Below, piece after piece: positions 2,562-64,000 of a DNA stretch of 64,000 nucleotides. Made by a program: the position numbers and the translations under genes. The DNA is from Terriglobales bacterium. Its GTDB lineage: Bacteria > Acidobacteriota > Terriglobia > Terriglobales > Acidobacteriaceae. Below the pieces are notes generated by a model. That model saw nothing but the letters and a program-made list of their open reading frames with translations. It was not told the origin of the DNA and ran no database searches. The stretch lies in NCBI GenBank assembly GCA_035484735.1, contig DATHOQ010000042.1:22460-86459 (forward strand). The letters are read 5' to 3'. The number at the start of each line of letters is the position of its first letter. The first letter of the stretch is position 1.

Positions 2562-2594
2562 AGAAGGCGAAAGTTTCTTATATGGAGATGTGTC

Positions 2595-25706: not shown

Positions 25707-25881
25707 ATAAGATTTGGTCGGAAGCTACGTAACACCATCCAGTGACAGGTTTGGTAGGCGGCGGGCTTGTAACAGTCCCGTAACTTGCCAGTGCCATCAT
25801 TATAGATTTGCAAGATGCTGGCGAAAGGAAGTATCCGACCCGGGCGCGAGACCTTGTGGGGAAAGAGACGTGGAGGATTTC

Positions 25882-31200: not shown

Positions 31201-31411
31201 GATGACCATGCTGGTGGCAACCCTGGGCCTGTTGCCCGCCGCGCTCTCTCATGGCATCGGATCGGATTCTCAGCGTCCTTTTGCCATCGTCATTGTTGGC
31301 GGCCTGATTGCCGACTTGATCATCAGTATCATCCTGTTGCCGACCTTGTACGCCTGGTTTGCACGCAGTTCCGATCGGCTGCCCGAGGCTGACCCGAACG
31401 AAGCCGTGTAA
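28274..31411 (+). CDS. czcA: Heavy-metal efflux RND transporter, CzcA/CusA family (divalent-cation type)
   Basis: A 1045-aa, 12-TM RND protein. TM4 contains DFGMVVDGAVVMVEN, matching the DFG..DGA..VEN signature I recall for divalent-cation HME-RND pumps rather than the Cus type. Confidence 0.88.
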   Translation: MIRAIVDFALNNRVVVLSAALLLFIWGMVSFHNLPVEAYPDVANTWVQVITQWPGRAAEEVEQQVTIPIEIQMNGIPHLQHVRSASLAGLSVVNLIFDDDSDNDWDRQKALERLAQVTLPPGVAGGIGPDFSPIGSVYWYTLKSTNPAYDLMDLKSLQDWVISKYIRSVPNVVDDSSFGGVTREYQVRVDPEKLISYGLSLAQVEQQLTNSNANVGGSFIEQGSQQINVRGLGLVGNVSDIEKTVIKAQNGTPLRIRDIAVVTQGPKIRLGQIGRAYHRVDGVVEDDDDVVEGIVFLRKGADTATMLESLHAMVNRLNDHILPPGVKIVPYLDRDDLVHYTTHTVLHNLAEGMILVVIILFIFLGNARGAIIVSLTIPFALLFASICLGLRGISANLLSLGALDFGMVVDGAVVMVENIVRHLNRPEEAPLTLLERIRKAVHEVQRPVFYAIAIIVTAYLPIFTLQRVEGKLFKPMAWTVAFALLGALMFSMLIAPALASLLFPRGATQWQNPVMTFLIARYRNAVRWAIRNRWITVGGAVVVLMVSAFLVFSGVIGSEFLPHLDEGAIWVRGTLAPSTGPTESARIAERAREILCSFPEVPQVVNQIGRPDDGTDTTGFFDTEFFVDLLPKEKWRPVFHQDKERLIAAMDRELEKIPGVLWGFSQPISDNLEEAVSGVKGALAVKIYGDDLKTLEGEADEIVTAMRPIRGVEDLGVFRVIGQPNLNFTVDRDQASRYGINVSDVQDAIQTAVGGNALTQVLIGEQRYDLVLRYLPQYRDTREAIEKVRLLAPSGERVSLAQLTRVKVLDGGSEIYREENSRYVAVKFSVRDHDLGSTVEEAIKKVNASVKLPTGYTLDWAGEYESAKRSQRRLLIVLPLTILLIFSILYTMFKSVKWGLLIMTNIAMAPSGGLLALLVTGTNFSVSSGVGFLALFGVSVQIGVIMLEYINQLRARGYDIEDAAVEGAVLRLRPIMMTMLVATLGLLPAALSHGIGSDSQRPFAIVIVGGLIADLIISIILLPTLYAWFARSSDRLPEADPNEAV

Positions 31412-38875: not shown

Positions 38876-39089
38876 CGAAAATCCTCCGTGGCACAAGATT
38901 CGGAATCGCGGCCTACTCACGCGAGAAATGGGGCCCAGCTCGGCTGAGAGCCGCACGGGGGAGTGCGTTGCGGCGTTCCGAGTGGAAACAATTATGTTCC
39001 TCCGCCCGTCGAAGGTCAAGCGGCAAGCGCACGAAGCTCGTTGCCATTAGCCCCGTGCTACACTGGCCCGTTTTCCGAGGACGATTCCT

Positions 39090-51702: not shown

Positions 51703-51993
51703 CTACGGGGACGGTTGTTGCTCAACAACGTGAGGGAACGGCCGCACTATCGGCTGCCTGTTCTTGCTAGCCCGCCAGAGATCGTACTGGGCCTGCATGT
51801 TCATCCAGAGGTCTGGAGAAGTCCCCAAAGCGGCCGCCAGCCGAAGAGCCATGTTCGCAGAGATTCCGGACTTGCCATTGAGCACTCGTGACAGGGTCAC
51901 GCGGGTGACACGCAGATGCTCTGCCGCCGCGGACACGGCCATGCCTCCGAGGTATTCTCGAAGTACCAAGCCTGGCACGGGTGGTTTGTGCAT
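51703..51993 (-). CDS. higA: HigA-family antitoxin (XRE-type HTH), no adjacent HigB
   Basis: MHKPPVPGLVLREYL...AEHLRVTRVTLSRVLNGKSGISANMALRLAAALGTSPDLWMNMQAQYDL matches the HigA pattern. Only about 80 nt of non-coding sequence lies upstream. Confidence 0.75.
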   Translation of the reverse strand: MHKPPVPGLVLREYLGGMAVSAAAEHLRVTRVTLSRVLNGKSGISANMALRLAAALGTSPDLWMNMQAQYDLWRASKNRQPIVRPFPHVVEQQPSP

Positions 51994-52076
51994 GCGTATA
52001 GTGTAACGATACAAGCTTCATTCGTCGAGAGACTGGATCGAATCCCGTGAAAAGATCGGTATTGCACCCCGAGTTG

Positions 52077-52104
52077 ATATTAGCTAACATAAGTTAGCTA
52101 ATAT
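52077..52104. promoter_or_regulatory. Perfect 12-bp inverted repeat (ATATTAGCTAAC-ataa-GTTAGCTAATAT), candidate TA operator
   Basis: Read directly from the sequence. The right arm overlaps the ATG (52103) of the Phd/YefM antitoxin gene. Confidence 0.65.
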
Positions 52105-52333
52105 GACGACCATAACAATTCATAAGGCCAAGACCAACCTTTCCCGACTGATTAAGAAGGCCTGCCAAGGGGAAGAAGTTGTCATTGCGCGCGGATCCGA
52201 GCCGGTCGTGCGCCTGGTTCCCATCACCGGCGCACGCGGTGACCGCAAGCCGGGAGCTTTGAAGGGCAAGCTCAAGGTCGGCCCCGAGTTCTTCGAACCT
52301 CTACCGCCGGAAGAACTGAAATTTTGGGAGTGA
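52103..52333 (+). CDS. Phd/YefM-family antitoxin
   Basis: MTTITIHKAKTNLSRLIKKACQGEEVVIARGSEPVVRLVPI is typical of the Phd/YefM N-terminal domain. Confidence 0.8.
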   Translation: MTTITIHKAKTNLSRLIKKACQGEEVVIARGSEPVVRLVPITGARGDRKPGALKGKLKVGPEFFEPLPPEELKFWE

Positions 52334-52339
52334 GTTCCT

Positions 52340-52726
52340 TTGCGCCTCCTGTTGGATACACATGCGCTGCTCTGGTGGTTGAATGACCATAATTTGCTGC
52401 CTGCTACTGCTCGGAAGGTAATTGGGCGGGAGGGCAATGAAGTTTTAGTGAGTGCAGCGTCTGCTTGGGAGATTGCGACGAAGGTCCGTCTGGGGCGGCT
52501 GGAAAGCGGTGCTGACCTAGCCCTAGACTTCACTGGGCACCTAAGCCGCGCGCGTTTCGTAGAACTGCCGGTGTCGGTGGAGCACGCCGTCCGGGCAGGT
52601 CTTCTGCCCGGACCACATAAGGACCCCTTTGATCGCATGCTGATTGCCCAGGCCCAAGCGGAGAATGTTCCCATTGTCAGCAACGATGCCGCGCTCGATG
52701 GGTATGGCGTGCGCCGAGTGTGGTAG
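52340..52726 (+). CDS. vapC: PIN-domain toxin VapC
   Basis: TTG start 6 nt after the antitoxin stop. Motifs LLLDTHALLWWLND, SAASAWEIATK, PFDRMLIAQA and IVSND. Confidence 0.8.
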   Translation: MRLLLDTHALLWWLNDHNLLPATARKVIGREGNEVLVSAASAWEIATKVRLGRLESGADLALDFTGHLSRARFVELPVSVEHAVRAGLLPGPHKDPFDRMLIAQAQAENVPIVSNDAALDGYGVRRVW

Positions 52727-52843: not shown

Positions 52844-53845
52844 GTGTACCCTTACAGGAACTTAATCGTGCCTAATCAAGACGGCAAAACGCTGCTTTTA
52901 TTGAAGCCCCGGGGGTTCTGCGCCGGGGTGGTTCGAGCCATTGATATCGTCCGCATTGCCTTGGAAGCCTTTGGACCGCCGATTTACGTGCGCAAAGAGA
53001 TCGTCCACAACCGCTTCGTGGTGGAAGAGCTCCAGGCCAAGGGTGCCATCTTTGTGGACAGCGTGGACGAAGTTCCGAACGGCGAGCGCGTGATTTATAG
53101 CGCCCATGGGGTCTCGCCCGAAGTGCGTGAAGCGAGCCAGACCCGCGGGCTGCGTGTGATCGACGCCACTTGTCCTCTGGTAACCAAGGTCCACGTGGAA
53201 GCGGTGAAGTTCGCCAAGGAGGGATATTCCCTCATCCTGATCGGCCACCGCGATCACGACGAAGTAATTGGCACCTTGGGCGAAGCTCCTCTAGTCACCC
53301 AAGTCGTGGGATCGCCCGAGGAAGTCGAGTCGCTGACTCTGCCCGACCCCAACCGCGTGGCGTATCTTACCCAGACCACTCTGAGTCTCGACGAGACCAA
53401 AGACATCATTGCCGCACTGCGCCGCAAGTTCCCGCACATTCAGGGTCCGCACGCGCAGGACATCTGTTATGCCACGGAAAACCGCCAGGTAGCGGTGAAA
53501 CATGTGGCGTCCGATGCTGACCTGCTGCTGGTCGTCGGCTCCGATAATAGTTCTAATTCCAATCGTCTCGTGGAAGTCGCGCGTAACTTGGGCACAGGTT
53601 CGCATCTGATCGATAGCTACCGAAACATTCGGCCAGAGTGGTTGGAAGGCGTCAAGACCATTGCTCTGACCGCCGGCGCCTCGGCACCGGAGTGCCTCGT
53701 GGAAGAGGTTGTTAAGTTCCTGGCGACCAAAGGATTCAATAACGTCAATGAAGTGGAAGTAATGCCTGAAAACGTGCGTTTTGGCTTGCCTCCCGAGATT
53801 GTGGAGGCCATAGCCAGCGCCCCTGCGGGAGTAACTGCGGAGTAA
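52844..53845 (+). CDS. ispH: 4-hydroxy-3-methylbut-2-enyl diphosphate reductase
   Basis: Motifs KPRGFCAGVVRAIDIV, SAHGVSP, DATCPLVTKVH, VVGSDNSSNSNRL and GASAPE (three cluster Cys). The exact start (GTG 52844) is uncertain. Confidence 0.88.
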   Translation: MYPYRNLIVPNQDGKTLLLLKPRGFCAGVVRAIDIVRIALEAFGPPIYVRKEIVHNRFVVEELQAKGAIFVDSVDEVPNGERVIYSAHGVSPEVREASQTRGLRVIDATCPLVTKVHVEAVKFAKEGYSLILIGHRDHDEVIGTLGEAPLVTQVVGSPEEVESLTLPDPNRVAYLTQTTLSLDETKDIIAALRRKFPHIQGPHAQDICYATENRQVAVKHVASDADLLLVVGSDNSSNSNRLVEVARNLGTGSHLIDSYRNIRPEWLEGVKTIALTAGASAPECLVEEVVKFLATKGFNNVNEVEVMPENVRFGLPPEIVEAIASAPAGVTAE

Positions 53846-53854
53846 GCAATCTTC

Positions 53855-55840
53855 ATGGACGAAACCCCCTCTTCGCCATTAGTGCCGGCCTCAGCGGCGC
53901 CGCAACTGCGTTTCGGAAAGATCGACGATCTGGCCAGCCGGGTCGCGGCTGCCGTCGACGGTGCCCGCAAATTCCTCTTCTCTCAGCAACACGAGGAGGG
54001 CTACTGGTGCGGCGAACTGGAAGCTGACACCACGCTGGAATCGGATTACATCCTGCTGCAAACCTTGCTGGGGACTGGGAATCCCGCGCGTTTCCGGAAA
54101 TGCTGCAATTGGATCCTTCAGCACCAGAATGAGGACGGTGGCTGGGGAATCTACGCCGACGCTCCCTCAAACATCAGCGCTTCTGTGAAGGCTTATTTTG
54201 CGTTGAAGCTATCTGGATACATGCCTGATCATCCCGCGCTGGTTCGAGCCCGCAAGAAGATCCTCGAAATGGGTGGAGTGACCGAGGCCAATACTTTTAC
54301 CAAGATTTATTTGTGTTTCCTAGGGCAGTACGATTATGACGCGGTGCCCGCCATCCCGCCGGAAATCGTACTGTTTCCCAATTGGTTCTGGTTCAACATT
54401 TACGAGATTTCGTCGTGGTCCCGCGCCATCCTGGTGCCGCTTTCCATCTGCTACGCCAAGAAGCCGCTGAAGAAAATTCCGGCGGAACAGGGCGTGGATG
54501 AATTGTTCGTCGGGGGTCGCGACAAGTCACGCATGCGGCTGCATTGGAGTCAGAAGCTGGTTTCCTGGCGAAACTTCTTTCTGGTTCTGGACCGGATGAT
54601 TCATTGGTTCGAAGCGATCCACATTCGTCCGCTACGCTGGCTGGCGCTCAAACGGGCGGAGCAGTGGATGCTCGAACGTTTCGAGATGAGCGATGGTTTG
54701 GGAGCGATTTTTCCCTCTATGCTGAATGCCATCATCGCGCTACGCTGTCTGGGTTATTCGCTCGATGATCCTCAGGTGATCCGCGCTGTCGATGAACTGG
54801 AAAAGCTGGGTATTGAAGAAGGCGACACTTTCCGCATGCAGCCCTGCAAGCCGCCGATATGGGACACGGCCTACGCTCTTTTTGCCCTGGGTGAAGCCGG
54901 AGTTCCCCCCAACGATCCGCGAATGGTGAAGTGCGCAGACTGGGTGCTGCAGAAGCAAGTTCGCAACGTGGGCGACTGGAAAGTGAAAAATCCAAAGGGA
55001 CAGCCGGGCGGGTGGTACTTCGAGTTCAACAACGAGTTCTATCCGGACGTGGACGACAGCGCCATGGTCTGCCTGGGGTTGAGCCGTGTGGAGCATCCCA
55101 ACGGACGCTATCAGCGCGAGTCGGTGCAGCGCGCGATCGACTGGATTTTCTCCATGCAATGTAAGAATGGTGGCTGGGGTTCTTTCGATAAAGACAACGA
55201 CAAGATGGTGTTCCAGCACATTCCGTTCGCCGACCACAACGCCATGCTGGATCCGCCGACCGTCGACATCACTGGCCGCATCCTCGAAATGCTGGCTACG
55301 TACGGATACGACCGGAACCATCCCCGGGTGAAGAAGGCGCTCAAGTTTATTCGCGCGGAGCAGGAACCGGACGGTTCCTGGTTTGGCCGCTGGGGTGTGA
55401 ACTATATCTACGGCACTATGCAGGTACTGCGCGGGCTCGAAGCCATGGGCGTGGATCACCATGAGCCTTACGTTCAGCAGGGGGCGGAGTGGCTGCGCAT
55501 GTTTCAGAATTCTGATGGCGGTTGGGGAGAGACATGCGGCTCATACGACGACCCCACCACCAAGGGAGTCGGCCCAAGTACGCCGTCGCAGACTGCTTGG
55601 GCAGTCATGGGCTTGCTCGCCGCCAGTGATACGCGCAGTGACAGCGTGGCTCGCGGCATTGCTTACCTGTTGCGCACGCAGAAGAAAGATGGCTCCTGGG
55701 ATGAGCCTCAGTTCACAGGGACCGGTTTTCCTCGCGTGTTCTATTTGCTGTATCACATGTACCGGCAGTATTTTCCGTTGATTGCGCTGACCACGTACGG
55801 CAAGGTGATGGCGGGAAATGGACGACTAACGAGCACTTAG
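53855..55840 (+). CDS. shc: Squalene-hopene cyclase
   Basis: A 661-aa protein with QQHEEGYWCGELEADTTLESDYILL, several QW motifs (QNEDGGWG, QCKNGGWG, QNSDGGWGE, QKKDGSW), and the catalytic DVDDSAMV (DxDD). Confidence 0.93.
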   Translation: MDETPSSPLVPASAAPQLRFGKIDDLASRVAAAVDGARKFLFSQQHEEGYWCGELEADTTLESDYILLQTLLGTGNPARFRKCCNWILQHQNEDGGWGIYADAPSNISASVKAYFALKLSGYMPDHPALVRARKKILEMGGVTEANTFTKIYLCFLGQYDYDAVPAIPPEIVLFPNWFWFNIYEISSWSRAILVPLSICYAKKPLKKIPAEQGVDELFVGGRDKSRMRLHWSQKLVSWRNFFLVLDRMIHWFEAIHIRPLRWLALKRAEQWMLERFEMSDGLGAIFPSMLNAIIALRCLGYSLDDPQVIRAVDELEKLGIEEGDTFRMQPCKPPIWDTAYALFALGEAGVPPNDPRMVKCADWVLQKQVRNVGDWKVKNPKGQPGGWYFEFNNEFYPDVDDSAMVCLGLSRVEHPNGRYQRESVQRAIDWIFSMQCKNGGWGSFDKDNDKMVFQHIPFADHNAMLDPPTVDITGRILEMLATYGYDRNHPRVKKALKFIRAEQEPDGSWFGRWGVNYIYGTMQVLRGLEAMGVDHHEPYVQQGAEWLRMFQNSDGGWGETCGSYDDPTTKGVGPSTPSQTAWAVMGLLAASDTRSDSVARGIAYLLRTQKKDGSWDEPQFTGTGFPRVFYLLYHMYRQYFPLIALTTYGKVMAGNGRLTST

Positions 55841-55963: not shown

Positions 55964-57085
55964 ATGGCAGTACCTATTTCACAGATGTGGACGGTGGCGA
56001 CGTACGTCATCCGGCAAAAGCTCAAGGGACGTAAGCAATACCCGCTGGTGCTGATGCTCGAGCCGCTATTCCGTTGCAATCTGGCCTGCGCCGGATGCGG
56101 CAAGATCCAGTATCCCGCCCATGTCCTAAAGATGCAGCTCACGCCCGAGGAATGTTTCCGCGCGGTGGATGATTGCGGTGCACCGGCGGTGTCCATTCCT
56201 GGTGGAGAGCCGCTGCTGCACCCGCAAATCGGTGAAATCGTCGAAGGCCTGGTCGCACGCAAGAAGTACATCTATCTCTGCACCAACGCACTGCTTCTGA
56301 AGCAGAAAATCGACCTGTTCAAGCCCAGCAAATATCTGACCTTCTCCGTCCACATGGACGGCCAACGTGAGCACCATGACTTTTCGGTCTGCCTGGAGGG
56401 TGGCTACGAGAAGGCGCGTGAAGGCATGAAAGAGGCGCTGGATCGCGGCTTTAGAGTCACGACCAACACTACGCTGTTCGACGGTGCCGATCCCAAAAGC
56501 GTGCGTGCATTCTTCGACGAAATGATGGATCTCGGCGTCGAAGGCATGATGCTTTCGCCGGGGTACTCTTATGAGAAAGCGCCCGATCAAAGCCATTTTC
56601 TGGGACGCGCCCGCACCCGCCGGTTATTCCGTGGCATCCTGTCGAACCGCAAAGCCAGTTGGCAGTTCAACATGTCGCCTCTGTTTCTCGAATTCCTGAT
56701 GGGCAAGCGCGATTATCCCTGCACTCCCTGGGGTATGCCGACGTTCAATGTTTTCGGATGGCAGAAGCCTTGTTACCTTTTGCAGGACGGGTACGCTGAC
56801 ACCTTCGCCGAGCTTCTCGCCACCACCGAGTGGGAAAAGTACGGCACCGAGTCGGGAAATCCCAAGTGCGCGAATTGCATGGTGCACAGTGGCTACGAAG
56901 CCTCGGCAGTGAATGAGACCTTCGGATCGTTGCAGGGTTTGTGGCATACCGCGAAGGCGACGCTGTTCGGCAAGTACGACGACCCGTCGGCGCTCAGTTT
57001 GCTCGACGAACCGGTTCGTCCCGTGCATGCTTTCAATCCACTGGTGCAGATCGAGTCACCCGCCGCTGAGGAGACACGCGTGTGA
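55964..57085 (+). CDS. hpnH: Adenosyl-hopene transferase, radical SAM protein HpnH
   Basis: Motifs [22 protein letters not shown] (CX3CX2C), GGEPLLHP, and the C-terminal DUF3463-like region [21 protein letters not shown]...[11 protein letters not shown]. It lies next to shc and hpnG. Confidence 0.88.
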
Positions 57086-57531
57086 GCGGGCGCGAATCAG
57101 GCCGAACCCCAGCGGCCCCACATGCCGTCATGGCTGATCCCGACGTTCTGGAAGTCGCACCGGGAGCGGCACGAGAGAAGCTCCAAGGCTCTGTTCCCCA
57201 GCTTGCGACTCCAGACGATCTGCGCGCGGCTCTAGAGCAAGCCTTTGACTACCGTGGAGATGTGCTCATCACACGTAAGGACGGCGCGAGCATTGAAGGC
57301 TACGTCTTCGATCGCCGTGGCGGCAAAACGCTGGAGGATTCCGTGGTGCGGCTGTTGCCGAAAGACGGAGGCGGAAAAGTTTCCGTCCGCTACGCCGACA
57401 TTGCGGCGCTCGCCTTTACGGGACGCGATATGGCCGCGGGCAACAGTTGGGAATCGTGGATCCGCCAATACTGGACCAAGAAGTCGGCCGGCGAAAGCGA
57501 TATTTCGTTACAGCCGGAGAATTTGGAGTAG
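57082..57531 (+). CDS. Hypothetical protein inside the hopanoid operon
   Basis: GTG overlaps the hpnH stop (GTGA). An alternative ATG at 57130 gives MADPDVLEV. The 133-149-aa soluble protein has no family that I recognise. Confidence 0.5.
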
Positions 57532-57600
57532 CACTTAGCATTAGCACTTGGCATTTGGTCTTTGAAAAGTGTGATGGCTAAATGCCAATTGCTAAATGCT
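57530..57600 (+). repeat. Intercistronic long-hairpin element, copy B (orf | hpnA)
   Basis: AGCACTTGGCATTTGGTC (57543-57560) pairs with GATGGCTAAATGCCAATTGCT (57573-57593), 18 bp with 1 mismatch and 2 G:U. An extra AGCACTTAGCA lies at 57530-57540. The element ends within the hpnA start codon region (ATG 57596). Confidence 0.75.
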
Positions 57601-58582
57601 TGCTTTCGTCACTGGCGCGACCGGATTCGTTGGCAGTCATGTGGCCCGCGTTCTCGCCGAGCAGGGTGCCGATCTGCGATTGCTGGTTCGGGTTGGCAGC
57701 AATACCCAAAACATTGATGGCCTGAATTCGGAAAGAGTAGTCGGTGACCTGCGTGATCCGCCCTCGATTGAACGGGCGATGTCAGGCTGTGACACCGTGT
57801 TTCACGTAGCTGCCGACTATCGTCTCTGGGTGCGCGATCCCGAGCAGATGTACCAGGCTAACGTCGAAGGCACAAGAGCGATTCTGCAAGCTGCCCGCAA
57901 GAACGGAGTGCGGCGGGTAGTGCATACCTCGAGCGTCGCGACCATGGGATTCACCTCGAACGGTCATCTGGCGGACGAGGATTCGCCGGTCAAATTGGAA
58001 AGCATGATCGGCCCCTACAAACGATCGAAATTCATGTCTGAAGATTTAGCCCTGAAAGCGGGCAGAAGAGGTATGGACGTAGTCGTGGTGAATCCGACCA
58101 CGCCGGTGGGTGAGCAGGACATTCGGCCCACCCCAACAGGTCGAATCGTTGTGGATTTTCTCAAGAAGAAGTTTCCCGCCTACGTAGACACAGGCTTGAA
58201 TCTTGTAGACGTGCGGGAATGTGCCCGCGGGCATCTAATAGCTTTAGAGAAGGGAAGGGCCGGGGAAAGATATATTCTGGGTGGCGAGAATCTCACTCTA
58301 AAGCAGATTCTCGACAAGTTGGCTGCGATTACCGGTCTGCCGTCGCCCAGGATCAAAGTTCCTTACGTGATGGCCCTAGCCACCGGAGTAGTCGATGAAA
58401 TGGTCACCGGACGCATCCTGGGCCGGGAACCCCGTGCGACTATCGACGCTGTGCGCATGGGCCGCAAGAAGATGTTTGTGTCATCCGCCAAAGCGGAACG
58501 CGAATTGGGATGGAAACCATCGCCCGTAGACGGCGCGCTCCGTCGCGCCGTGGAATGGTTCCAAACTCATAAGTACGCATAA
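57596..58582 (+). CDS. hpnA: Hopanoid-associated NAD-dependent sugar epimerase/dehydratase-family protein HpnA
   Basis: MLAFVTGATGFVGSHVARVL (Rossmann GxxGxxG) and YKRSK (YxxxK), an SDR extended fold, located within the hpn cluster. Confidence 0.8.
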   Translation: MLAFVTGATGFVGSHVARVLAEQGADLRLLVRVGSNTQNIDGLNSERVVGDLRDPPSIERAMSGCDTVFHVAADYRLWVRDPEQMYQANVEGTRAILQAARKNGVRRVVHTSSVATMGFTSNGHLADEDSPVKLESMIGPYKRSKFMSEDLALKAGRRGMDVVVVNPTTPVGEQDIRPTPTGRIVVDFLKKKFPAYVDTGLNLVDVRECARGHLIALEKGRAGERYILGGENLTLKQILDKLAAITGLPSPRIKVPYVMALATGVVDEMVTGRILGREPRATIDAVRMGRKKMFVSSAKAERELGWKPSPVDGALRRAVEWFQTHKYA

Positions 58583-58592
58583 GGACGCAGAC

Positions 58593-59270
58593 TTGTCAGA
58601 ATCGTGCAAAGTCGGAATCGTGGCCGCGCTCGAGCGCGAGGTGTGGCCGCTGGTGAAAGATTGGTCGGTGGCCAACCAGCGACACGACGGCCGCAGTTTC
58701 AAGTTCTTCGAGCACGAGAACGCAGTACTGGTCTGCGGAGGAATCGGAGCCGAGGCCGCGCGTCGTGCAGCCGAAGCCATCATCGTGCTATATAAACCCG
58801 CGCTGGTTATTTCGGCGGGGTTTGCTGGCGGCCTTGATCCGGCTCTCAGAGCCGGCCACGCGCTGACTCCACGCCTGGTCATTGATGCCGGCGACGGCAG
58901 CCGTACCGACTCGGGCACCGGTGAAGGCGTATTGGTGAGCTTTGCCGCAGTCGCTGACTCTGAGCAAAAGACGAGTCTGGCCAGGGCTTACGGGGCCGAT
59001 GTGGTGGACATGGAGGCGGCGGCGGTTTCTCGTTGCGCTCAGGCACATGGAATTCAGTTCACAGCCTGTAAGGTGGTTTCCGATTCGCGCGATCAGCGGC
59101 TGCCTCCGGTTGCCCGTTTTGTGGCTTCGGACGGGACATTTCAGTCGTTCCGCTTCCTGGCGCATGTGGCTGTGCGTCCCTGGCTATGGGCCGGGGTGGG
59201 ACAGTTGGCGAGGAATAGTTCCATCGCCGCGCGGTCACTTTGCGAAAGACTGGCGCTGAGTACACAATAA
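58593..59270 (+). CDS. hpnG: Hopanoid-associated phosphorylase/nucleosidase HpnG
   Basis: TTG 58593 lies 7 nt after AAGGA. PNP_UDP-like motifs VGIVAALEREVWPL, VCGGIGAEAA, ISAGFAGGL and DMEAAAV. It lies within the hpn cluster. Confidence 0.8.
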   Translation: MSESCKVGIVAALEREVWPLVKDWSVANQRHDGRSFKFFEHENAVLVCGGIGAEAARRAAEAIIVLYKPALVISAGFAGGLDPALRAGHALTPRLVIDAGDGSRTDSGTGEGVLVSFAAVADSEQKTSLARAYGADVVDMEAAAVSRCAQAHGIQFTACKVVSDSRDQRLPPVARFVASDGTFQSFRFLAHVAVRPWLWAGVGQLARNSSIAARSLCERLALSTQ

Positions 59271-59280
59271 GATTGAGCAC

Positions 59281-60405
59281 GTGATTATGGCTACGGGACT
59301 ATTAACTCCGAATCAGACCAAAGCGATTCCCACCACCATGCAGGCGGCGGTGTATCGCGGCGTCGGCGACGTCCGCATTGAGACCGTCCCAGTTCCTCGG
59401 ATCGGTGCCGGAGAACTTCTCCTTAGAGTGCACACCTGCGGTATCTGCGGGACGGACCTCAAGAAGATTGCCACGGGATCGCACTCCGCGCCCCGCATCT
59501 TTGGTCATGAAACGTCGGGTGTGGTGGCTGCGGTTGGCACTGATGTGACCCAGTTCAAACCCGGCGATCGAGTGGTGGTCTTTCACCACATCCCGTGCCG
59601 GCAATGTTTCTACTGCCTGCATAGGACCTTTGCCCAGTGCGAGACTTATAAGAAAGTCGGATGCACCGCCGGATTCGAGCCTGCGGGTGGGGGATTTGCG
59701 GAATACGTGCGTGTAATGGACTGGATAGTCCGCGAGGGAACTGTCGCCATCCCGGACGGCGTCTCCTTTGAGCAGGCCTGTTTCGTGGAGCCGGTGAATA
59801 CCTGCATGAAAGGCATCGATACTTTGCAACTTTCGCCGGACGAGAGTGTTCTGGTTATTGGGCAGGGACCGATCGGTATCATATTGAGCGTATTGGCCAA
59901 ACGGGCGGGAGCTAGGGTAATTACTTCCGATTTGTATCCCCAGAGGCTTACAATATCTACATCACTCGGTTTACAGCACATGATTGATGCTTCGCGTGCC
60001 GATACCGTGCAAGCGGCGCGAGAATTCACCGCGGGCCGGGGCGCTGACGTGGCGATACTTGCGGTCGGGGGAAATGCCTTGATCCGGACTGCGATGGATG
60101 CCGTGCGTCCAGGCGGCCGGGTACTGTTGTTTGCGCAGACAACGCGCGGTGAGGCCACTATTGATCCGGCTGCCGTCTGCGTGGATGAGAAGACTTTGTT
60201 GGGATCTTATAGCGCTTCTGTCGATCTCCAAGAGGAGTCGGTGCAATTCGTGATGAACCGTGAAATGGACTTGGAACGCTTGATCAGCCACCGCTTTCCT
60301 TTGTCCCGCAGTGTGGAAGCTTTGCACTTGGCCGCCCATCCCCAATCGGATTCGATGAAAATTGTGATCCAAACGGGCAGCGGCTGGGGAGGAAGTACAG
60401 AGTGA
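59281..60405 (+). CDS. Zn-dependent medium-chain dehydrogenase/reductase (polyol/threonine dehydrogenase-like), copy 1
   Basis: Motifs CGICGTDLK, GHETSG (catalytic Zn), CRQCFYC...C (structural Zn), and VIGQGPIG (Rossmann). The start is uncertain (GTG 59281, ATG 59287 or ATG 59338). Confidence 0.8.
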   Translation: MIMATGLLTPNQTKAIPTTMQAAVYRGVGDVRIETVPVPRIGAGELLLRVHTCGICGTDLKKIATGSHSAPRIFGHETSGVVAAVGTDVTQFKPGDRVVVFHHIPCRQCFYCLHRTFAQCETYKKVGCTAGFEPAGGGFAEYVRVMDWIVREGTVAIPDGVSFEQACFVEPVNTCMKGIDTLQLSPDESVLVIGQGPIGIILSVLAKRAGARVITSDLYPQRLTISTSLGLQHMIDASRADTVQAAREFTAGRGADVAILAVGGNALIRTAMDAVRPGGRVLLFAQTTRGEATIDPAAVCVDEKTLLGSYSASVDLQEESVQFVMNREMDLERLISHRFPLSRSVEALHLAAHPQSDSMKIVIQTGSGWGGSTE

Positions 60406-61451
60406 ACGGTAAGATGACGGCAGCTGTCCTCTACGGTAAAGAGGACGTAAAGATTGAAAGAGTGCCTATCCCTCGCCTGGGCGAAGGCGAAGTACTGGTC
60501 AAGGTCGAAGTTGCTCTGACCTGCGGTACTGATCTCAAGGTCTACCAGCGCGGTTATCATGCCCGCATGATCGTTCCTCCAGCTCTGTTCGGACACGAAC
60601 TGGCAGGAGTCATCGAAGAAGTCGGTCCCGGCGTGCGTAGCTTCCGTAAGGGAATGCGCGTGGTGGCTCTCAACTCGGCCCCTTGTCAGATGTGTTTCTA
60701 CTGTTCCCGCCATCAGGAAAATCTTTGCGAGGACTTGCTTTTCAACAACGGGGCTTATGCGGAATACATCCGCATTCCGCGGCGGATCGTCGAGACCAAT
60801 ATGCTGGCGATGCCCTCCGGCGTGACCTTTGAAGACGCTGCCATGGTCGAGCCGCTGGCCTGCGTGTTGCGTGGTTTGCACGAAACCGGAGTAGAGATCG
60901 GAGATACCGTGGCCATCATCGGCGGCGGTCCCATTGGGTTGATGTTCGTGCAGGTCGCAACCGCCGTGGGCTGCAAGGTCATTTCCGTGGTGAAGCGCGA
61001 TTCACAAGTGACCGCAGCCAAGCAAATGGGCGCCAAGGAAGTGGTGCAGATCACCAAGGTCAAGGATCCGGTGGACGCGGTGCGAATGTTGTCCCCGGAA
61101 AAGCGTGGCGGAGACGTCGTGATTGAAGCGGTTGGCCGTCCCGAGGCATGGGAATGGGCCATCGACATGGTACGTAAAGGCGGCACCGTGAACTTTTTCG
61201 GAGGGTGCGCCAGCGGTACCAAAGTCCAGCTTGATACCAACCGGTTGCACTATTCCGAAGTTACGCTGAAAGCCACGTTCCATCACACACCGGAAACCGT
61301 GCGCAAGGCATTCGCGTTAATTGCGGAGAAAAAGATTCGTTCCACTGACTACATCACCGGCGAGGCGCCACTCTCCCGGTTGCAGCAGGTGCTTCGCCAC
61401 ATGCTGAACCGCAATGGCGACATCAAGACCGCCATTATCCCCGGTCACTAA
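60402..61451 (+). CDS. Zn-dependent medium-chain dehydrogenase/reductase, copy 2
   Basis: GTG 60402 overlaps the upstream stop (GTGA), 8 nt after GGAGGA. Motifs CGTDLK, GHELAG, CQMCFYC...C and IIGGGPIG. Confidence 0.8.
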   Translation: MNGKMTAAVLYGKEDVKIERVPIPRLGEGEVLVKVEVALTCGTDLKVYQRGYHARMIVPPALFGHELAGVIEEVGPGVRSFRKGMRVVALNSAPCQMCFYCSRHQENLCEDLLFNNGAYAEYIRIPRRIVETNMLAMPSGVTFEDAAMVEPLACVLRGLHETGVEIGDTVAIIGGGPIGLMFVQVATAVGCKVISVVKRDSQVTAAKQMGAKEVVQITKVKDPVDAVRMLSPEKRGGDVVIEAVGRPEAWEWAIDMVRKGGTVNFFGGCASGTKVQLDTNRLHYSEVTLKATFHHTPETVRKAFALIAEKKIRSTDYITGEAPLSRLQQVLRHMLNRNGDIKTAIIPGH

Positions 61452-61499: not shown

Positions 61500-62456
61500 A
61501 TGGCAGTCATCGCAAGCAACGACTCTAGGACCGCTGTTCCGGCCAGCCTGGCGGGCTGGAGCCGGCTTCCGCCGGGCTATGCCATCCCCCAAAACGCTCC
61601 GACAGAGGTGGAGGCACAGGAATATTGCCGTCGTCTGGCGCGCAGCCATTACGAGAACTTTTCGGTGGCGAGTTGGTTTCTGCCGCAGCGCTTGCGGCAA
61701 CACTTTTTCAACGTCTACGCTTACTGCCGCATATCGGACGATCTGGGCGACGAAGTCGGCGATCCGGCCGCGTCACTGCAATTACTCGATCAATGGCAGG
61801 CCGAGCTGGATGCGTGTTATTCGGGCAATCCCCGGCACCCGGTGTTCGTAGCCCTGGCCGCTACCGTCCGCAAGTTCGACATTCCTAAGCAGACTTTTGC
61901 CGACCTGCTGACTGCGTTTCGACAGGACCAGACCGTTACCCGCTATCCAACGTTCGACGACTTACTGGGCTACTGCCACAATTCCGCGAATCCCGTGGGC
62001 AGGCTCGTGCTATACCTTTGCGGCTATCGCGACGCCGAGCGTCAACAGCTTTCTGATTTCACCTGCACCGCGTTGCAACTCGCCAACTTCTGGCAAGATG
62101 TCAGCGTCGACTTCGCCAAAGGCCGCATTTATCTGCCACTCGATGACATGCGGCGTTTTGGGGTTAGTGAGGACGATCTTGCGGCGCAGAGAAACACTGC
62201 GGCGTTCTGCCATCTGATGCGCTTTGAAGTCGCGCGTGCGCGCGAATGGTTCCAGCAGGGCTGGCCACTGGCTGCACAGGTAGATCGTGAACTGGCCCTC
62301 GACATCGAGCTATTCAGCCGCGGTGGCCAGGAGATTCTCCGCGCTATCGAGCGTCAGGGATACGGTGTGTTGGGCCGTAGGCCGTCAATTTCCAAATCCC
62401 GCAAGCTTGCGTTGGTGGCCCGCGCCGCTTGGAGCAAGCTTGGTGGAGCAAACTAG
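61500..62456 (+). CDS. hpnC: Squalene synthase-like HpnC (hydroxysqualene synthase)
   Basis: HYENFSVASWFLPQRLRQHFFNVYAYCRISDDLGDE, then NFWQDVSVDFAKGRIYLP. A SQS/PSY fold with both Asp-rich regions, first of the hpnCDE triplet. Confidence 0.8.
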   Translation: MAVIASNDSRTAVPASLAGWSRLPPGYAIPQNAPTEVEAQEYCRRLARSHYENFSVASWFLPQRLRQHFFNVYAYCRISDDLGDEVGDPAASLQLLDQWQAELDACYSGNPRHPVFVALAATVRKFDIPKQTFADLLTAFRQDQTVTRYPTFDDLLGYCHNSANPVGRLVLYLCGYRDAERQQLSDFTCTALQLANFWQDVSVDFAKGRIYLPLDDMRRFGVSEDDLAAQRNTAAFCHLMRFEVARAREWFQQGWPLAAQVDRELALDIELFSRGGQEILRAIERQGYGVLGRRPSISKSRKLALVARAAWSKLGGAN

Positions 62457-62470
62457 GTGGGCGAACCGGG

Positions 62471-63412
62471 ATGAGCGCCGCCGTGCAACCAGCTCCCACA
62501 CCTTTCGTGGCCACTGAATCGCAACTCGCGGTTGCGTATTCCGTCTGCCGCAGCATCACGCGCTCAGCCGCCAGGAATTTTTACTACGCATTTATCGTGT
62601 TGCCCCGGCCCAAGCGTCAGGCATTGTGCGCAGTGTACGCATTCATGCGGCGCTGTGACGACATTGCAGACGATGCAGCGTTGCCCGCTCACGAGCGGCG
62701 GCAGAAGCTGGCTTCCTGGCTGGACGCCGCCCACCGGGCGCTGGCTGGCCACGCCACCGACGAACCCGTCTTGCTCGCTTTGACCGACGCTCAACGACGC
62801 TACAACATTCCAGTCGAGTTGCTCGATCAGTTGGCTTTCGGTACGGAAATGGACGTTGAAGGCGAAGACCTGTTGCTGTGCGAGACTGCGGAGCCCGGCA
62901 TAATTCGTTACCGGACATTCGAAGATCTGCGCGTTTACTGTCACCGCGTGGCTTCGGTGGTCGGGCTGGTATGCATTCGCATTTTCGGTTATCGCGACCC
63001 CGCTGCGGAGCCGCTGGCTGAGAAATGCGGTCTGGCCTTCCAACTCACTAACATCATTCGCGATGTAAAAGAAGACGCTGCCATGGGTCGCGTCTATCTG
63101 CCGGAAGAAGACTTGGCCAAGTTTGGCATCTCGCCCGCGGAGCTTAGCGCTGCCGTAGATCCGGCCAGATTTCGTCCTTTGCTCGCCATGGAAGCGGATC
63201 GCGCGCGCCAGTATTACCGCGCGGGGGACGATCTCATTCCCTTGATTGACGAAGACAGCCAGCCCGCACTCTGGGTCTTGATTACCATCTATCGGCGTCT
63301 GCTGGAAGAGATCGCGCATGCCAATTATGACGTCTTCAGCGGCAAAATCACCCTCACAGTCAGAGAGAAACTCACCGTCCTGGCCAAGGGCTTCATGAAG
63401 CGTATGGCGTGA
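62471..63412 (+). CDS. hpnD: Presqualene diphosphate synthase HpnD
   Basis: ATG 62471. Motifs ARNFYYAFIVLPRPKRQALCAVYAFMRRCDDIADD and NIIRDVKEDAAMGRVYLP. Second SQS/PSY paralog. Confidence 0.8.
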   Translation: MSAAVQPAPTPFVATESQLAVAYSVCRSITRSAARNFYYAFIVLPRPKRQALCAVYAFMRRCDDIADDAALPAHERRQKLASWLDAAHRALAGHATDEPVLLALTDAQRRYNIPVELLDQLAFGTEMDVEGEDLLLCETAEPGIIRYRTFEDLRVYCHRVASVVGLVCIRIFGYRDPAAEPLAEKCGLAFQLTNIIRDVKEDAAMGRVYLPEEDLAKFGISPAELSAAVDPARFRPLLAMEADRARQYYRAGDDLIPLIDEDSQPALWVLITIYRRLLEEIAHANYDVFSGKITLTVREKLTVLAKGFMKRMA

Positions 63413-64000
63413 TGACCTCACCCGCACCCCGGAATGCCAAGGTTGCTGTTGTCGGCGGTGGACTGGCCGGATTAGCCGCCGGTTGCGCTCTCGCCGACAG
63501 TGACTTTCAGGTGACCGTATTTGAGCGCCGCCCTTTTCTCGGTGGACGAGCTTCTTCCTATCAGCATCCCGGCACCGGCGAAGTAGTGGATAACTGCCAG
63601 CACGTCTTGCTCGGGTGCTGCACTAATCTCATCGATTTTTATGCGCGTCTTGGCGTCGAAGACAAGATCCGCTGGTACGATGCCCTGACTTTTCTTGAGC
63701 CTGGAGGACGGGTCTCGGTCATCGGCTCGTCCTCGCTGCCAGCCCCGTTTCATACCGCCCCTGCATTCTTTGGTGCGCCGTGTTTGGGTCTTAAGGATAA
63801 GTTTGCCATTGGGGCTGCAATGGCCTCTTTGGTCCAGAGCATCCCTGCCGACAATGGCGAAACGTTCTTGAGCTGGCTACAGCGCCATGGTCAAACCACG
63901 ATGGCCATCGAACGTTTTTGGAAGACTATCCTGATCAGTGCCTTGAACGAAGACCTTGATCGGATGTCCGTCTCGTACGCAGCTCAGGTGGTTCGTGAGT
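63412..64000 (+). CDS. hpnE: Hydroxysqualene dehydroxylase HpnE (FAD-dependent amine-oxidase family), N-terminal part, runs off the window
   Basis: ATG 63412 overlaps the hpnD stop (TGATG). My translation gives MTSPAPRNAKVAVVGGGLAGLAAGCALADSDFQVTVFERRPFLGGRASSY...DNCQHVLLGC, open to the window end. It is absent from the ORF track because there is no stop. Confidence 0.8.
   Translation, partial: MTSPAPRNAKVAVVGGGLAGLAAGCALADSDFQVTVFERRPFLGGRASSYQHPGTGEVVDNCQHVLLGCCTNLIDFYARLGVEDKIRWYDALTFLEPGGRVSVIGSSSLPAPFHTAPAFFGAPCLGLKDKFAIGAAMASLVQSIPADNGETFLSWLQRHGQTTMAIERFWKTILISALNEDLDRMSVSYAAQVVRE

What the first reader, a model, noticed from the sequence alone, without database searches (positions are those of the whole stretch)
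59281..61451. Two coupled Zn-dehydrogenases between hpnG and hpnC: candidates for the unassigned ribosylhopane to bacteriohopanetetrol reduction
Seen in sequence: two paralogous medium-chain dehydrogenases lie on the same strand directly after hpnH (55964-57085), hpnA and hpnG (58593-59270). Each has a GHE catalytic-Zn motif, a CxxCxxC...C structural-Zn motif and a GxGxxG Rossmann motif. The first begins 11 nt after the hpnG stop. The second overlaps the first by GTGA with a GGAGGA SD. hpnC-hpnD-hpnE follow 48 nt later. Established knowledge: HpnH forms adenosylhopane and HpnG releases adenine to give ribosylhopane. To my knowledge the NAD(P)H-dependent reduction of open-chain ribosylhopane to bacteriohopanetetrol has been observed biochemically but has no gene assigned. 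Inference: polyol/aldose-reducing MDR enzymes are chemically the right catalysts, and this operon position is where that step would sit. The presence of two paralogs might reflect a heteromer or two different side-chain redox steps.
Basis: partly seen in the sequence, partly recalled or inferred. Interest (0 to 1): 0.78.

Follow-up and report, generated by a model that had tools for sequence, protein, structure and literature searches.

The report
Paired zinc dehydrogenases inside hopanoid operon
Two adjacent zinc-dependent dehydrogenase genes, one predicted to use NAD and the other NADP, sit inside the hopanoid lipid operon of this soil acidobacterium, which makes them testable but lineage-restricted candidates for the unassigned step that turns ribosylhopane into bacteriohopanetetrol.

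Summary
ADH1 (59281-60405) and ADH2 (60402-61451) are intact zinc-dependent medium-chain dehydrogenases (MDRs). They share 32% identity and overlap by GTGA. They lie between hpnG and hpnC in a tightly packed ispH-shc-hpnH-ORF-hpnA-hpnG-ADH1-ADH2-hpnC-hpnD-hpnE array.

The placement is not chance. ADH1-ADH2-hpnC is kept in every informative Terriglobales locus (74/74 genomes, 44/44 metagenome contigs). It is also kept in a deeper lineage at 56-61% identity (9/9) and next to hpnCDE in one Armatimonadota MAG.

Three points limit the interpretation:
- The association was already published in 2017 as the unknown genes ug1 and ug2.
- The tightest linkage is to hpnCDE, not hpnG. About 17 of 78 genomes have a rearrangement breakpoint exactly between hpnG and ADH1.
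- The same ADH1-type/ADH2-type pair occurs without hopanoid genes in Armatimonadota, Actinomycetota and other bacteria, sometimes near carbohydrate enzymes. According to the literature it is absent from alphaproteobacterial hopanoid clusters and from the BHT producer Chloracidobacterium.

ADH1 carries an NAD-type Asp. ADH2 carries an NADP-type [V/G][K/R]R motif. All zinc ligands are invariant.

Best reading: a sugar/polyol-type redox pair recruited to process the ribosyl side chain, with ADH2 as the likely NADPH-dependent reductase. This is plausible and unproven.

The parts
52844..53845 (+). ispH (LytB), the first gene of the isoprenoid/hopanoid array
   Evidence: ORF. Its orthologue in related locus L092 carries Pfam LYTB. 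It is 79-93% identical across 66 related loci.
53855..55840 (+). shc (squalene-hopene cyclase)
   Evidence: 661-aa ORF. Orthologues in L092 carry the SQHop_cyclase_N and SQHop_cyclase_C domains. It is conserved upstream in 69 of 80 loci.
55964..57085 (+). hpnH (adenosylhopane synthase, radical SAM)
   Evidence: NCBIfam TIGR03470 HpnH scores 540 bits against a cut-off of 225. Pfam finds Radical_SAM and DUF3463.
57082..57531 (+). 149-aa ORF of unknown function that overlaps the hpnH stop codon ('ug3' of Sinninghe Damste 2017)
   Evidence: No Pfam or NCBIfam match. It is present in all 17 loci that hold hpnH, at 62-80% identity.
57596..58582 (+). hpnA (hopanoid-associated SDR 'sugar epimerase')
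   Evidence: NCBIfam TIGR03466 HpnA scores 503 bits against a cut-off of 368.
58593..59270 (+). hpnG (divergent adenosylhopane nucleosidase/phosphorylase)
   Evidence: Pfam PNP_UDP_1. Its best NCBIfam model is HpnG, but at 101 bits it is below the 187 cut-off. It is only 37-71% identical among Terriglobales.
59281..60405 (+). ADH1 (= ug1): zinc MDR dehydrogenase, predicted NAD(H)-type
   Evidence: Pfam ADH_N and ADH_zinc_N. The zinc ligands Cys56/His76/Glu77/Glu170 and Cys106/109/112/120 are invariant in 151 relatives. Asp217 aligns with Asp203 of human sorbitol dehydrogenase, and this position is Asp or Glu in 151/151 relatives. The AlphaFold2 model has pLDDT 88.
60388..60393 (+). GGAGGA Shine-Dalgarno sequence for ADH2, inside the 3' end of ADH1
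   Evidence: Read directly from the sequence. It lies 8 nt upstream of the GTG at 60402.
60402..61451 (+). ADH2 (= ug2): zinc MDR dehydrogenase, predicted NADP(H)-type
   Evidence: Pfam ADH_N and ADH_zinc_N. All zinc ligands are invariant in 172 relatives. V197-K198-R199 sit where the NADP-dependent ketose reductase 1e3j has A-R-S and sorbitol dehydrogenase has Asp203. The invariant FHHTP motif aligns with the F297-R298-Y299 motif of sorbitol dehydrogenase. The AlphaFold2 model has pLDDT 94. It is 83-93% identical across Terriglobales.
61500..62456 (+). hpnC (hydroxysqualene synthase)
   Evidence: NCBIfam TIGR03464 scores 363 bits against a cut-off of 250. It lies directly downstream of ADH2 in 74/74 genome loci.
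62429..63412 (+). hpnD (presqualene diphosphate synthase); overlaps hpnC by 28 nt
   Evidence: Its best NCBIfam model is TIGR03465 HpnD at 257 bits, against a cut-off of 279.
63412..64000 (+). hpnE, 5' part (FAD amine-oxidase family); runs off the end of the window
   Evidence: tblastn with the L001 HpnE gives 76% identity. The start codon at 63412 is visible in the translation. The L001 orthologue carries Pfam Amino_oxidase.

Best explanation
ADH1 and ADH2 are the two halves of an old, co-inherited two-gene module of zinc-dependent MDR oxidoreductases of the sugar/polyol-dehydrogenase type. ADH1-type proteins are predicted to use NAD and ADH2-type proteins NADP. Both keep a complete catalytic and structural zinc site.

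The module occurs in several phyla. In Acidobacteriota, and in at least one Armatimonadota lineage, it has been built into the hopanoid operon between hpnG and hpnCDE and appears to be co-transcribed and translationally coupled there.

Proposed mechanism (inferred, not shown):
1. HpnH makes adenosylhopane.
2. HpnG removes adenine and leaves the ribose hemiacetal of ribosylhopane.
3. ADH2 uses NADPH to reduce the open-chain C-35 aldehyde, giving bacteriohopanetetrol.
4. ADH1 is either a partner subunit of ADH2 or carries out an NAD-linked oxidation of a side-chain hydroxyl or of the hemiacetal.

Shown here: gene structure, family, intact active sites, cofactor-type motifs, and conserved synteny. 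Inferred: the substrate, the direction of each reaction, and any heteromer.
For: Gene structure in the window:
- Spacers are 10 nt (hpnG to ADH1), -4 nt (ADH1 to ADH2) and 48 nt (ADH2 to hpnC).
- No terminator-like site lies in these spacers.

Conserved synteny:
- ADH1-ADH2-hpnC-hpnD is kept in all informative loci of 80 Terriglobales genomes, and hpnG lies directly upstream on the same strand in 61 of 78.
- In metagenome contigs, the Terriglobales-like class has hpnC downstream in 44/44 and ADH1 upstream in 41/41. A deeper class at 56-61% identity has 9/9 and 9/9.
- In L150 from that deeper class, shc-hpnH-hpnA-hpnG-ADH1-ADH2-hpnC form one overlapping operon.
- A lineage at 61% identity has the same order.
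- Another class has hpnA-hpnG-ADH2-hpnC, with ADH2 directly after hpnG.

The pair as a unit:
- The ADH1 and ADH2 trees are largely congruent, so the pair is inherited together.

Active sites and cofactors:
- Zinc ligands are invariant. Position 217 of ADH1 is Asp or Glu in 151/151 relatives. About 169 of 172 ADH2 relatives carry [V/G][K/R]R.

Substrate type:
- Outside hopanoid loci the pair sometimes lies near carbohydrate-active genes: heparinase, a GH141/beta-helix protein, aldose epimerase and GFO/IDH/MocA. This fits a sugar-like substrate.

State of the field:
- The step has no assigned enzyme in the literature I searched, up to August 2026.
- NADPH dependence of the cell-free reduction is my recollection of Bodlenner et al. 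2015, which I could not read here.
Against: - The strongest linkage is to hpnCDE, not hpnG. In about 17 of 78 Terriglobales genomes an inversion breakpoint falls exactly between hpnG and ADH1, while ADH1-ADH2-hpnCD stay together.
- The Armatimonadota locus has the pair plus hpnCDE but no hpnG, hpnH or shc within 10 kb.
- The pair occurs without any hopanoid gene nearby in Chthonomonas, an Actinomycetota MAG, a Planctomycetota-like genome and marine and soil contigs. Its ancestral substrate is therefore not a hopanoid.
- Some BHT producers lack it. No candidate gene was found near the hpn clusters of 48 Alphaproteobacteria, and C. thermophilum lacks ug2.
- The nearest characterised enzymes are only 30% identical or less. 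They oxidise secondary alcohols or reduce ketoses rather than aldoses.
- One reduction does not need two enzymes.
- HpnA, an SDR in the same operon, is a competing candidate that others have already proposed.
Confidence: 0.38

Rival explanations
1. The pair tailors the hopanoid side chain in some other way than the aldehyde reduction. ADH1 could oxidise a secondary hydroxyl of BHT with NAD, as sorbitol dehydrogenase does at the carbon next to the primary alcohol, and ADH2 could reduce the product with NADPH. Together this would give an epimer, a keto-BHP or a lactone (ribonylhopane). Alternatively the pair makes a sugar or polyol head-group precursor for composite hopanoids.
For: - The closest relatives are polyol dehydrogenases and ketose reductases.
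- The opposite cofactor types, NAD for ADH1 and NADP for ADH2, are what an oxidise-then-reduce pair would have.
- In L150 the same operon continues with an HddA-like sugar kinase and a sugar-1-phosphate nucleotidylyltransferase.
- In P0150 an ADH1-like MDR is fused to a sugar-1-phosphate nucleotidylyltransferase.
- Hopanoids of SD1 Acidobacteria were profiled only after Rohmer degradation, which hides such side-chain differences.
Against: - No keto-, epimeric or lactone BHP is documented for Terriglobales in the papers I could search.
- One lineage keeps only ADH2 in the cluster.
- The F-R-Y substrate motif of sorbitol dehydrogenase is replaced in both proteins.
Confidence: 0.17
2. The pair is a general sugar, polyol or small-metabolite redox module that does not touch hopanoids. 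It is only co-transcribed with hpnCDE, for example for co-regulation under membrane stress or for redox balance.
For: - The same module, with the same gene order and often the same 4-nt overlap, is found without hopanoid neighbours in several phyla.
- Hopanoid linkage is 0/6 in the class with less than 56% identity.
- A low-specificity threonine aldolase lies directly upstream in the Armatimonadota locus.
Against: - The position in the middle of the hopanoid operon is held across lineages in which ADH2 has diverged to 58% identity and Shc to 48%.
- Start and stop codons overlap those of hpnG and hpnC in L150 and L092.
- The rearrangements that occur never separate the pair from hpnCDE.
Confidence: 0.25
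3. The pair works with HpnC, HpnD and HpnE in squalene synthesis, for example by acting on hydroxysqualene or on a farnesyl-derived alcohol or aldehyde.
For: - ADH2-hpnC adjacency is the most constant feature: 74/74 genome loci, 44/44 and 9/9 metagenome loci, and the Armatimonadota locus.
- The 2017 paper grouped ug2 with hpnCDE.
Against: - From my own knowledge of Pan et al. 2015, as cited: HpnC, HpnD and HpnE alone make squalene in E. coli, so the pathway has no gap.
- The 2017 authors themselves concluded that ug2 is not essential for squalene synthesis.
- The neighbours of the pair in other phyla point to sugars, not isoprenoids.
Confidence: 0.08

Closest known systems
ug1 and ug2, the 'unknown genes' of acidobacterial hopanoid clusters (Sinninghe Damste et al. 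2017, PMC5462960)
   Same: These are the same genes. ug1 follows hpnA-hpnG. ug2 is a Zn-binding alcohol dehydrogenase of about 350 aa that precedes hpnC-hpnD-hpnE. ug3 follows hpnH.
   Different: - The paper assigned them no function and suggested HpnA for the ribosylhopane reduction.
- It treated ug1 and ug2 as belonging to separate clusters. Here they turn out to be one co-inherited pair that is also found outside hopanoid loci and outside Acidobacteria.
Sorbitol dehydrogenase / polyol dehydrogenase subfamily of MDRs (human SDH 1PL6, sheep 3QE3)
   Same: - The fold matches, with TM-scores of about 0.8-0.88.
- The Cys-His-Glu catalytic zinc site with the second-sphere Glu is present.
- ADH1 has the NAD-type Asp equivalent to Asp203.
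   Different: - Identity is only 25-26%.
- Both proteins keep the structural-zinc cysteines.
- The F297-R298-Y299 motif is F-H-H in ADH2 and Y-S-A in ADH1.
- No NCBIfam equivalog cut-off is reached.
NADP(H)-dependent ketose reductase of the silverleaf whitefly (1E3J)
   Same: It is the second-best PDB match of ADH2 by sequence (134 bits) and by fold. ADH2 has V-K-R where this enzyme has A-R-S, in place of the NAD-type Asp.
   Different: It is 27% identical, a eukaryotic enzyme acting on free fructose and sorbitol, and not part of a two-gene pair.
The polyol pathway (NADPH aldose reductase followed by NAD sorbitol dehydrogenase); named from my own knowledge
   Same: It has the same logic of one NADPH-type and one NAD-type enzyme acting in turn on a sugar chain.
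   Different: The aldose reductase of that pathway belongs to the aldo-keto reductase family, not the MDRs. Nothing here shows that ADH1 and ADH2 act in sequence.
Putative zinc-binding dehydrogenase of Sinorhizobium meliloti (4EJ6/4EJM) and Thermus TADH (4CPD)
   Same: These are the best PDB matches by sequence and fold.
   Different: They are about 30% identical. The first has no known substrate and the second is a broad-range alcohol dehydrogenase. Neither says anything about the substrate here.

Membership tests
Zinc-dependent medium-chain dehydrogenase/reductase (MDR) superfamily | GroES-like catalytic domain plus a Rossmann domain with GxGxxG | tested here: met
   Pfam ADH_N (89 and 86 bits) and ADH_zinc_N (73 and 89 bits), all above their cut-offs. 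The GxGxxG glycines are invariant. The AlphaFold2 models match MDR structures with TM-scores of 0.8-0.9.
Zinc-dependent medium-chain dehydrogenase/reductase (MDR) superfamily | Catalytic zinc ligands (Cys, His, Glu) and four structural-zinc cysteines | tested here: met
   ADH1: C56/H76/E77 with E170, and C106/C109/C112/C120. ADH2: C41/H65/E66 with E150, and C95/C98/C101/C109. These are invariant in 151 and 172 relatives.
Sorbitol / polyol dehydrogenase subfamily | Polyol-binding motif equivalent to F297-R298-Y299 of human SDH, and a score above a curated equivalog cut-off | tested here: not met
   The motif is F-H-H in ADH2 and Y-S-A in ADH1. The IolM, GatD and IdnD models score 110-165 bits against cut-offs of 450-550.
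L-threonine 3-dehydrogenase (TIGR00692 / NF003808) | Score above the equivalog cut-off | tested here: not met
   Scores are 153-164 bits against cut-offs of 380-458.
Hopanoid-cluster genes ug1/ug2 of Acidobacteria | ug1 directly after hpnA-hpnG; ug2, a Zn-ADH of about 350 aa, directly before hpnC-hpnD-hpnE | tested here: met
   The window has this order. The description comes from PMC5462960. The order is conserved in loci L001-L080.
Ribosylhopane reductase (a function only; no sequence family is defined) | Co-localised with hpnG and hpnH | tested here: inconclusive
   hpnG lies directly upstream in 61 of 78 Terriglobales genomes and in deeper lineages. However, the pair is separable from hpnG and never from hpnCDE. 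hpnH is in the locus in only 17 of 80 genomes.
Ribosylhopane reductase (a function only; no sequence family is defined) | Present in all BHT producers | tested here: not met
   From the literature: no candidate gene lies near the hpn clusters of 48 Alphaproteobacteria, and C. thermophilum makes BHT without ug2. I could not scan those genomes myself.
Ribosylhopane reductase (a function only; no sequence family is defined) | NADPH-dependent reduction of ribosylhopane to BHT | not testable with these tools
   Only the NADP-type motif of ADH2 can be read from the sequence. Enzyme assays are needed.
Heteromeric MDR complex | Physical association of ADH1 and ADH2 | not testable with these tools
   The indirect evidence is constant gene order, a frequent 4-nt overlap and largely congruent trees across phyla. 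The one apparent fusion protein (P0013) looks like an assembly frameshift.

The most novel reading that the evidence does not exclude
ADH1 and ADH2 form an obligate two-cofactor MDR enzyme pair, one NAD-type and one NADP-type. In Acidobacteria the pair supplies the missing enzymatic route from ribosylhopane to bacteriohopanetetrol, possibly with a further NAD-linked side-chain oxidation. The same widespread module in other phyla would act on free pentoses or 5-substituted riboses. This would give the first gene assignment for that step. It would also show that different hopanoid producers solve the step with unrelated enzymes.
Probability: 0.25. Interest if true: 0.75.

Novelty: new member of a known kind. 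Interest (0 to 1): 0.55.

Why it matters
Bacteriohopanepolyols are major bacterial membrane lipids and the source of the hopane fossils used in geochemistry. One core step of their synthesis, ribosylhopane to bacteriohopanetetrol, has had no gene for more than ten years, and a 2026 review still draws it as non-enzymatic.

Acidobacteria are among the most abundant soil bacteria and a likely major source of soil BHT. Concrete candidates that can be cloned now make the question directly testable in this phylum.

The work also shows that the candidates cannot be the universal answer, which is useful when reading hopanoid gene inventories. Separately, it defines a widespread, uncharacterised pair of NAD-type and NADP-type zinc dehydrogenases that deserves biochemical study in its own right.

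Tried and rejected
- **Curated families.** No NCBIfam equivalog is reached. The Tdh, IolM, GatD and IdnD models all score far below their cut-offs.
- **PDB by sequence and by fold.** Only generic MDR neighbours at 30% identity or less came back. They say nothing about the substrate.
- **Protein search with an alignment of distant ADH1-like proteins.** The result was swamped by Acidobacteria.
- **Cluster look-up for organism names.** It returned almost none.
- **Natural ADH1-ADH2 fusion as evidence of a complex.** P0013 (586 aa) reads through both genes, but both ends are truncated or frameshifted, so I treat it as an assembly error.
- **A link to the MEP pathway.** I first took the kinase and nucleotidyltransferase after hpnD in L150 for IspE and IspD. 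They are an HddA-like sugar kinase and a sugar-1-phosphate nucleotidylyltransferase.
- **A squalene-hopene cyclase near the Chthonomonas pair.** The match is 28 bits over about 80 residues, so it is not a cyclase.
- **Promoter and terminator scan.** Nothing above the shuffled background, and no site in the relevant spacers.
- **Primary papers on the reduction.** Bodlenner 2015 and Liu 2014 are not held in the library.
Full report
**1. Observation**

The window holds a tightly packed plus-strand array:

| Gene | Coordinates |
|---|---|
| ispH | 52844-53845 |
| shc | 53855-55840 |
| hpnH | 55964-57085 |
| 149-aa ORF | 57082-57531 |
| hpnA | 57596-58582 |
| hpnG | 58593-59270 |
| ADH1 | 59281-60405 |
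| ADH2 | 60402-61451 |
| hpnC | 61500-62456 |
| hpnD | 62429-63412 |
| hpnE (start) | 63412 onward |

The spacers around the two dehydrogenases are 10 nt, -4 nt (GTGA) and 48 nt. GGAGGA lies 8 nt upstream of the ADH2 start codon. No terminator-like site falls in these spacers.

NCBIfam confirms HpnH, HpnA and HpnC above their cut-offs. HpnD falls just under its cut-off. HpnG is well under (101 bits against 187), so it is a divergent HpnG.

Both dehydrogenases carry Pfam ADH_N and ADH_zinc_N. They are 32% identical to each other.

**2. What the two proteins are**

Neither protein reaches any curated equivalog model. The best matches, IolM and Tdh, score 150-165 bits against cut-offs of 380-458.

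The best PDB relatives by sequence and by predicted fold belong to the polyol-dehydrogenase/Tdh branch of the MDRs. They include human sorbitol dehydrogenase, the whitefly NADP ketose reductase, Thermus TADH and an uncharacterised Sinorhizobium enzyme. Identity is 30% or less and TM-scores are 0.8-0.9. The AlphaFold2 models are confident, with pLDDT 94 for ADH2 and 88 for ADH1.

Across them:
- All catalytic and structural zinc ligands and the GxGxxG glycines are invariant, so both proteins should be active enzymes.
- ADH1 has Asp217 at the position of Asp203 in sorbitol dehydrogenase. This position is Asp or Glu in 151/151 sequences, which is the NAD type.
- ADH2 has V-K-R at that position, and about 169 of 172 sequences carry [V/G][K/R]R. 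The NADP-dependent ketose reductase has A-R-S there.
- The F-R-Y motif of sorbitol dehydrogenase is replaced by an invariant F-H-H-T-P in ADH2 and by Y-S-[A/S] in ADH1.

Sequence alone therefore does not predict the substrate.

**3. Conservation of the neighbourhood**

*Genome scan.* A scan with an ADH1 alignment matched more than 583 places. The best 80 are all Terriglobales or Terriglobia at 72-85% identity. tblastn of the window's proteins against these loci shows:
- ADH1 is next to ADH2 in 79/79 loci.
- hpnC is directly after ADH2 in 74/74.
- hpnG is directly upstream on the same strand in 61 of 78.
- In the other 17, the ispH-shc-hpnA-hpnG block is inverted or missing from the flank, while ADH1-ADH2-hpnCD stay together.

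In L058 the gene directly upstream of ADH1 is a divergent recN, so the breakpoint lies exactly between hpnG and ADH1.

ADH2 has a median identity of 87%. This is as conserved as IspH or HpnH, and much more conserved than HpnG (55%) or HpnD (68%).

*Metagenome scan.* A scan with an ADH2 alignment, analysed, gives four classes by identity to ADH2:

| Class | Identity to ADH2 | hpnC downstream | ADH1 upstream | Notes |
|---|---|---|---|---|
| Terriglobales-like | 76% or more | 44/44 | 41/41 | |
| Deeper lineage | 56-61% | 9/9 | 9/9 | L150 is one overlapping operon, shc-hpnH-hpnA-hpnG-ADH1-ADH2-hpnC-hpnD |
| Intermediate | about 65% | 2/2 | 0/1 | Order is hpnA-hpnG-ADH2-hpnC |
| Distant | under 56% | 0/6 | 3/5 | No hopanoid genes nearby |

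A lineage at 61% identity to ADH1 (L092, L093) repeats the full order seen in the window.

**4. The pair outside hopanoid loci**

The search of protein-cluster representatives shows that full-length ADH1 relatives drop quickly to 40-50% identity. Their genomic contexts are:

| Source | Locus | Context |
|---|---|---|
| Armatimonadota MAG | L081 | Threonine aldolase, ADH1-like, ADH2-like, hpnC, hpnD, hpnE; no hpnG, hpnH or shc within 10 kb |
| Chthonomonas calidirosea | L176 | GH141/beta-helix protein, ADH1-like, ADH2-like |
| Planctomycetota-like genome, 6.1 Mb | L177 | Aldose epimerase and a GFO/IDH/MocA oxidoreductase divergent from the pair |
| Actinomycetota MAG | L178 | The pair, with no hopanoid genes |
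| Marine and soil contigs | L084, L087, L090, L095, L102 | Varied neighbours, including a QueF-like protein, heparinase and methyltransferases |

The gene order is always ADH1-type then ADH2-type, often with a 4-nt overlap. Each member is closer to its own type than to its partner. The two NJ trees are largely congruent.

This is an old two-gene module. The acidobacterial hopanoid-linked set forms one clade within it. The Armatimonadota hpnCDE-linked pair branches separately.

**5. Literature**

Sinninghe Damste et al. 2017 (PMC5462960) already described ug1 (after hpnG), ug2 (a Zn-binding alcohol dehydrogenase of about 350 aa before hpnC) and ug3 (after hpnH) as unknown genes in acidobacterial hopanoid clusters. 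They noted that ug2 is absent from C. thermophilum, which makes BHT. They suggested HpnA for the ribosylhopane reduction.

A 2025 study of 48 Alphaproteobacteria found no further candidate genes near the hpn clusters and states that the enzyme is not established. An August 2026 review draws the step as non-enzymatic. No paper in the library links these dehydrogenases to the step.

**6. Interpretation**

The constant position inside the operon, across lineages in which Shc has diverged to 48% identity, argues that the pair works in the hopanoid pathway in these bacteria. The polyol-dehydrogenase relationships, together with the sugar-related neighbours seen beside some copies in other phyla, argue that it acts on a sugar-like moiety. 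In this pathway that moiety is the ribose left by HpnG.

ADH2 is the better candidate for the aldehyde reduction. It has the NADP-type motif, it is the more conserved of the two, and it is the member retained in the lineage that lacks ADH1 in the cluster.

Several points count against a confident assignment:
- The linkage to hpnCDE is tighter than the linkage to hpnG.
- The module is widespread without hopanoid genes.
- It is absent from other BHT producers.
- There are two enzymes for one reduction.
- HpnA competes as a candidate.

I put the side-chain reductase reading at about 0.38. Another side-chain tailoring role gets 0.17. An unrelated co-transcribed function gets 0.25. A role in squalene synthesis gets 0.08.

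**7. Verdict**

The gene association itself has been known since 2017. The proposed function is new to the searchable literature, plausible and directly testable, but at most lineage-specific. The proteins are new, uncharacterised members of a well-known enzyme superfamily. Interest is 0.55.

Noticed in passing
window 57082-57531 (+): A 149-aa ORF overlaps the hpnH stop codon by 4 nt. It has no Pfam or NCBIfam match. It occurs in all 17 related loci that hold hpnH, at 62-80% identity, and a 142-aa counterpart follows hpnH in L092 and L093. It corresponds to 'ug3' of the 2017 paper. Its function is unknown.
   Followed up: partly
window 58593-59270; loci L001-L080: HpnG evolves much faster than its neighbours. 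It is 37-71% identical among Terriglobales, against 72-93% for IspH, Shc, HpnH and the two dehydrogenases. It scores below the NCBIfam HpnG cut-off (101 bits against 187).
   Followed up: partly
L031, L034, L037, L039, L043, L052, L054, L057, L058, L063, L066, L067, L069-L071, L073, L080: A recurrent rearrangement has its breakpoint exactly between hpnG and ADH1. The ispH-shc-hpnA-hpnG block is inverted or missing from the 10-kb upstream flank. In L058, a divergent recN lies directly upstream of ADH1.
   Followed up: partly
L159 and L169 (hpnG 1036-1950, ADH2 1957-3000, hpnC 3040-4167 in L169): One lineage has hpnA-hpnG-ADH2-hpnC with no ADH1 in the cluster, so ADH1 is dispensable there or encoded elsewhere.
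   Followed up: partly
L150 12827-16195: In the deeper hopanoid-linked lineage the operon continues after hpnD with three genes: an HddA-like GHMP sugar kinase, a sugar-1-phosphate nucleotidylyltransferase and a 514-aa protein with no family match. This may be a sugar-activation branch for composite hopanoids.
   Followed up: partly
L018 8115-8801, and 13 other loci with a 620-813 nt gap between hpnG and ADH1: In L018 an extra ORF with one hydrophobic helix is inserted between hpnG and ADH1. The other 13 loci have gaps of the same size but were not inspected. The window has no such ORF.
   Followed up: no
window 51703-52726; L092 6601-7268 and 8438-9134: Toxin-antitoxin genes sit at or inside the hopanoid array. 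In the window, a HigA antitoxin and a PIN/VapC-like ORF lie between recN and ispH. In L092 and L093, PIN and RelE/HTH pairs are inserted between hopanoid genes without disturbing the dehydrogenase pair.
   Followed up: no
P0150 (602 aa; representative): This protein is a natural fusion of a sugar-1-phosphate nucleotidylyltransferase domain to an ADH1-like MDR (38% identity). It is reminiscent of enzyme pairs that activate polyol phosphates.
   Followed up: partly
L001 17519-19006 (-), beyond the window's end in the equivalent region: [quoted passage not shown]
   Followed up: no
window 25714-31411 and 37157-39019: A CusA/CzcA-type heavy-metal RND efflux operon (permease at 937 bits) and a 620-aa protein full of GloVer 'choice-of-anchor' repeats. 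Neither is related to the finding.
   Followed up: no
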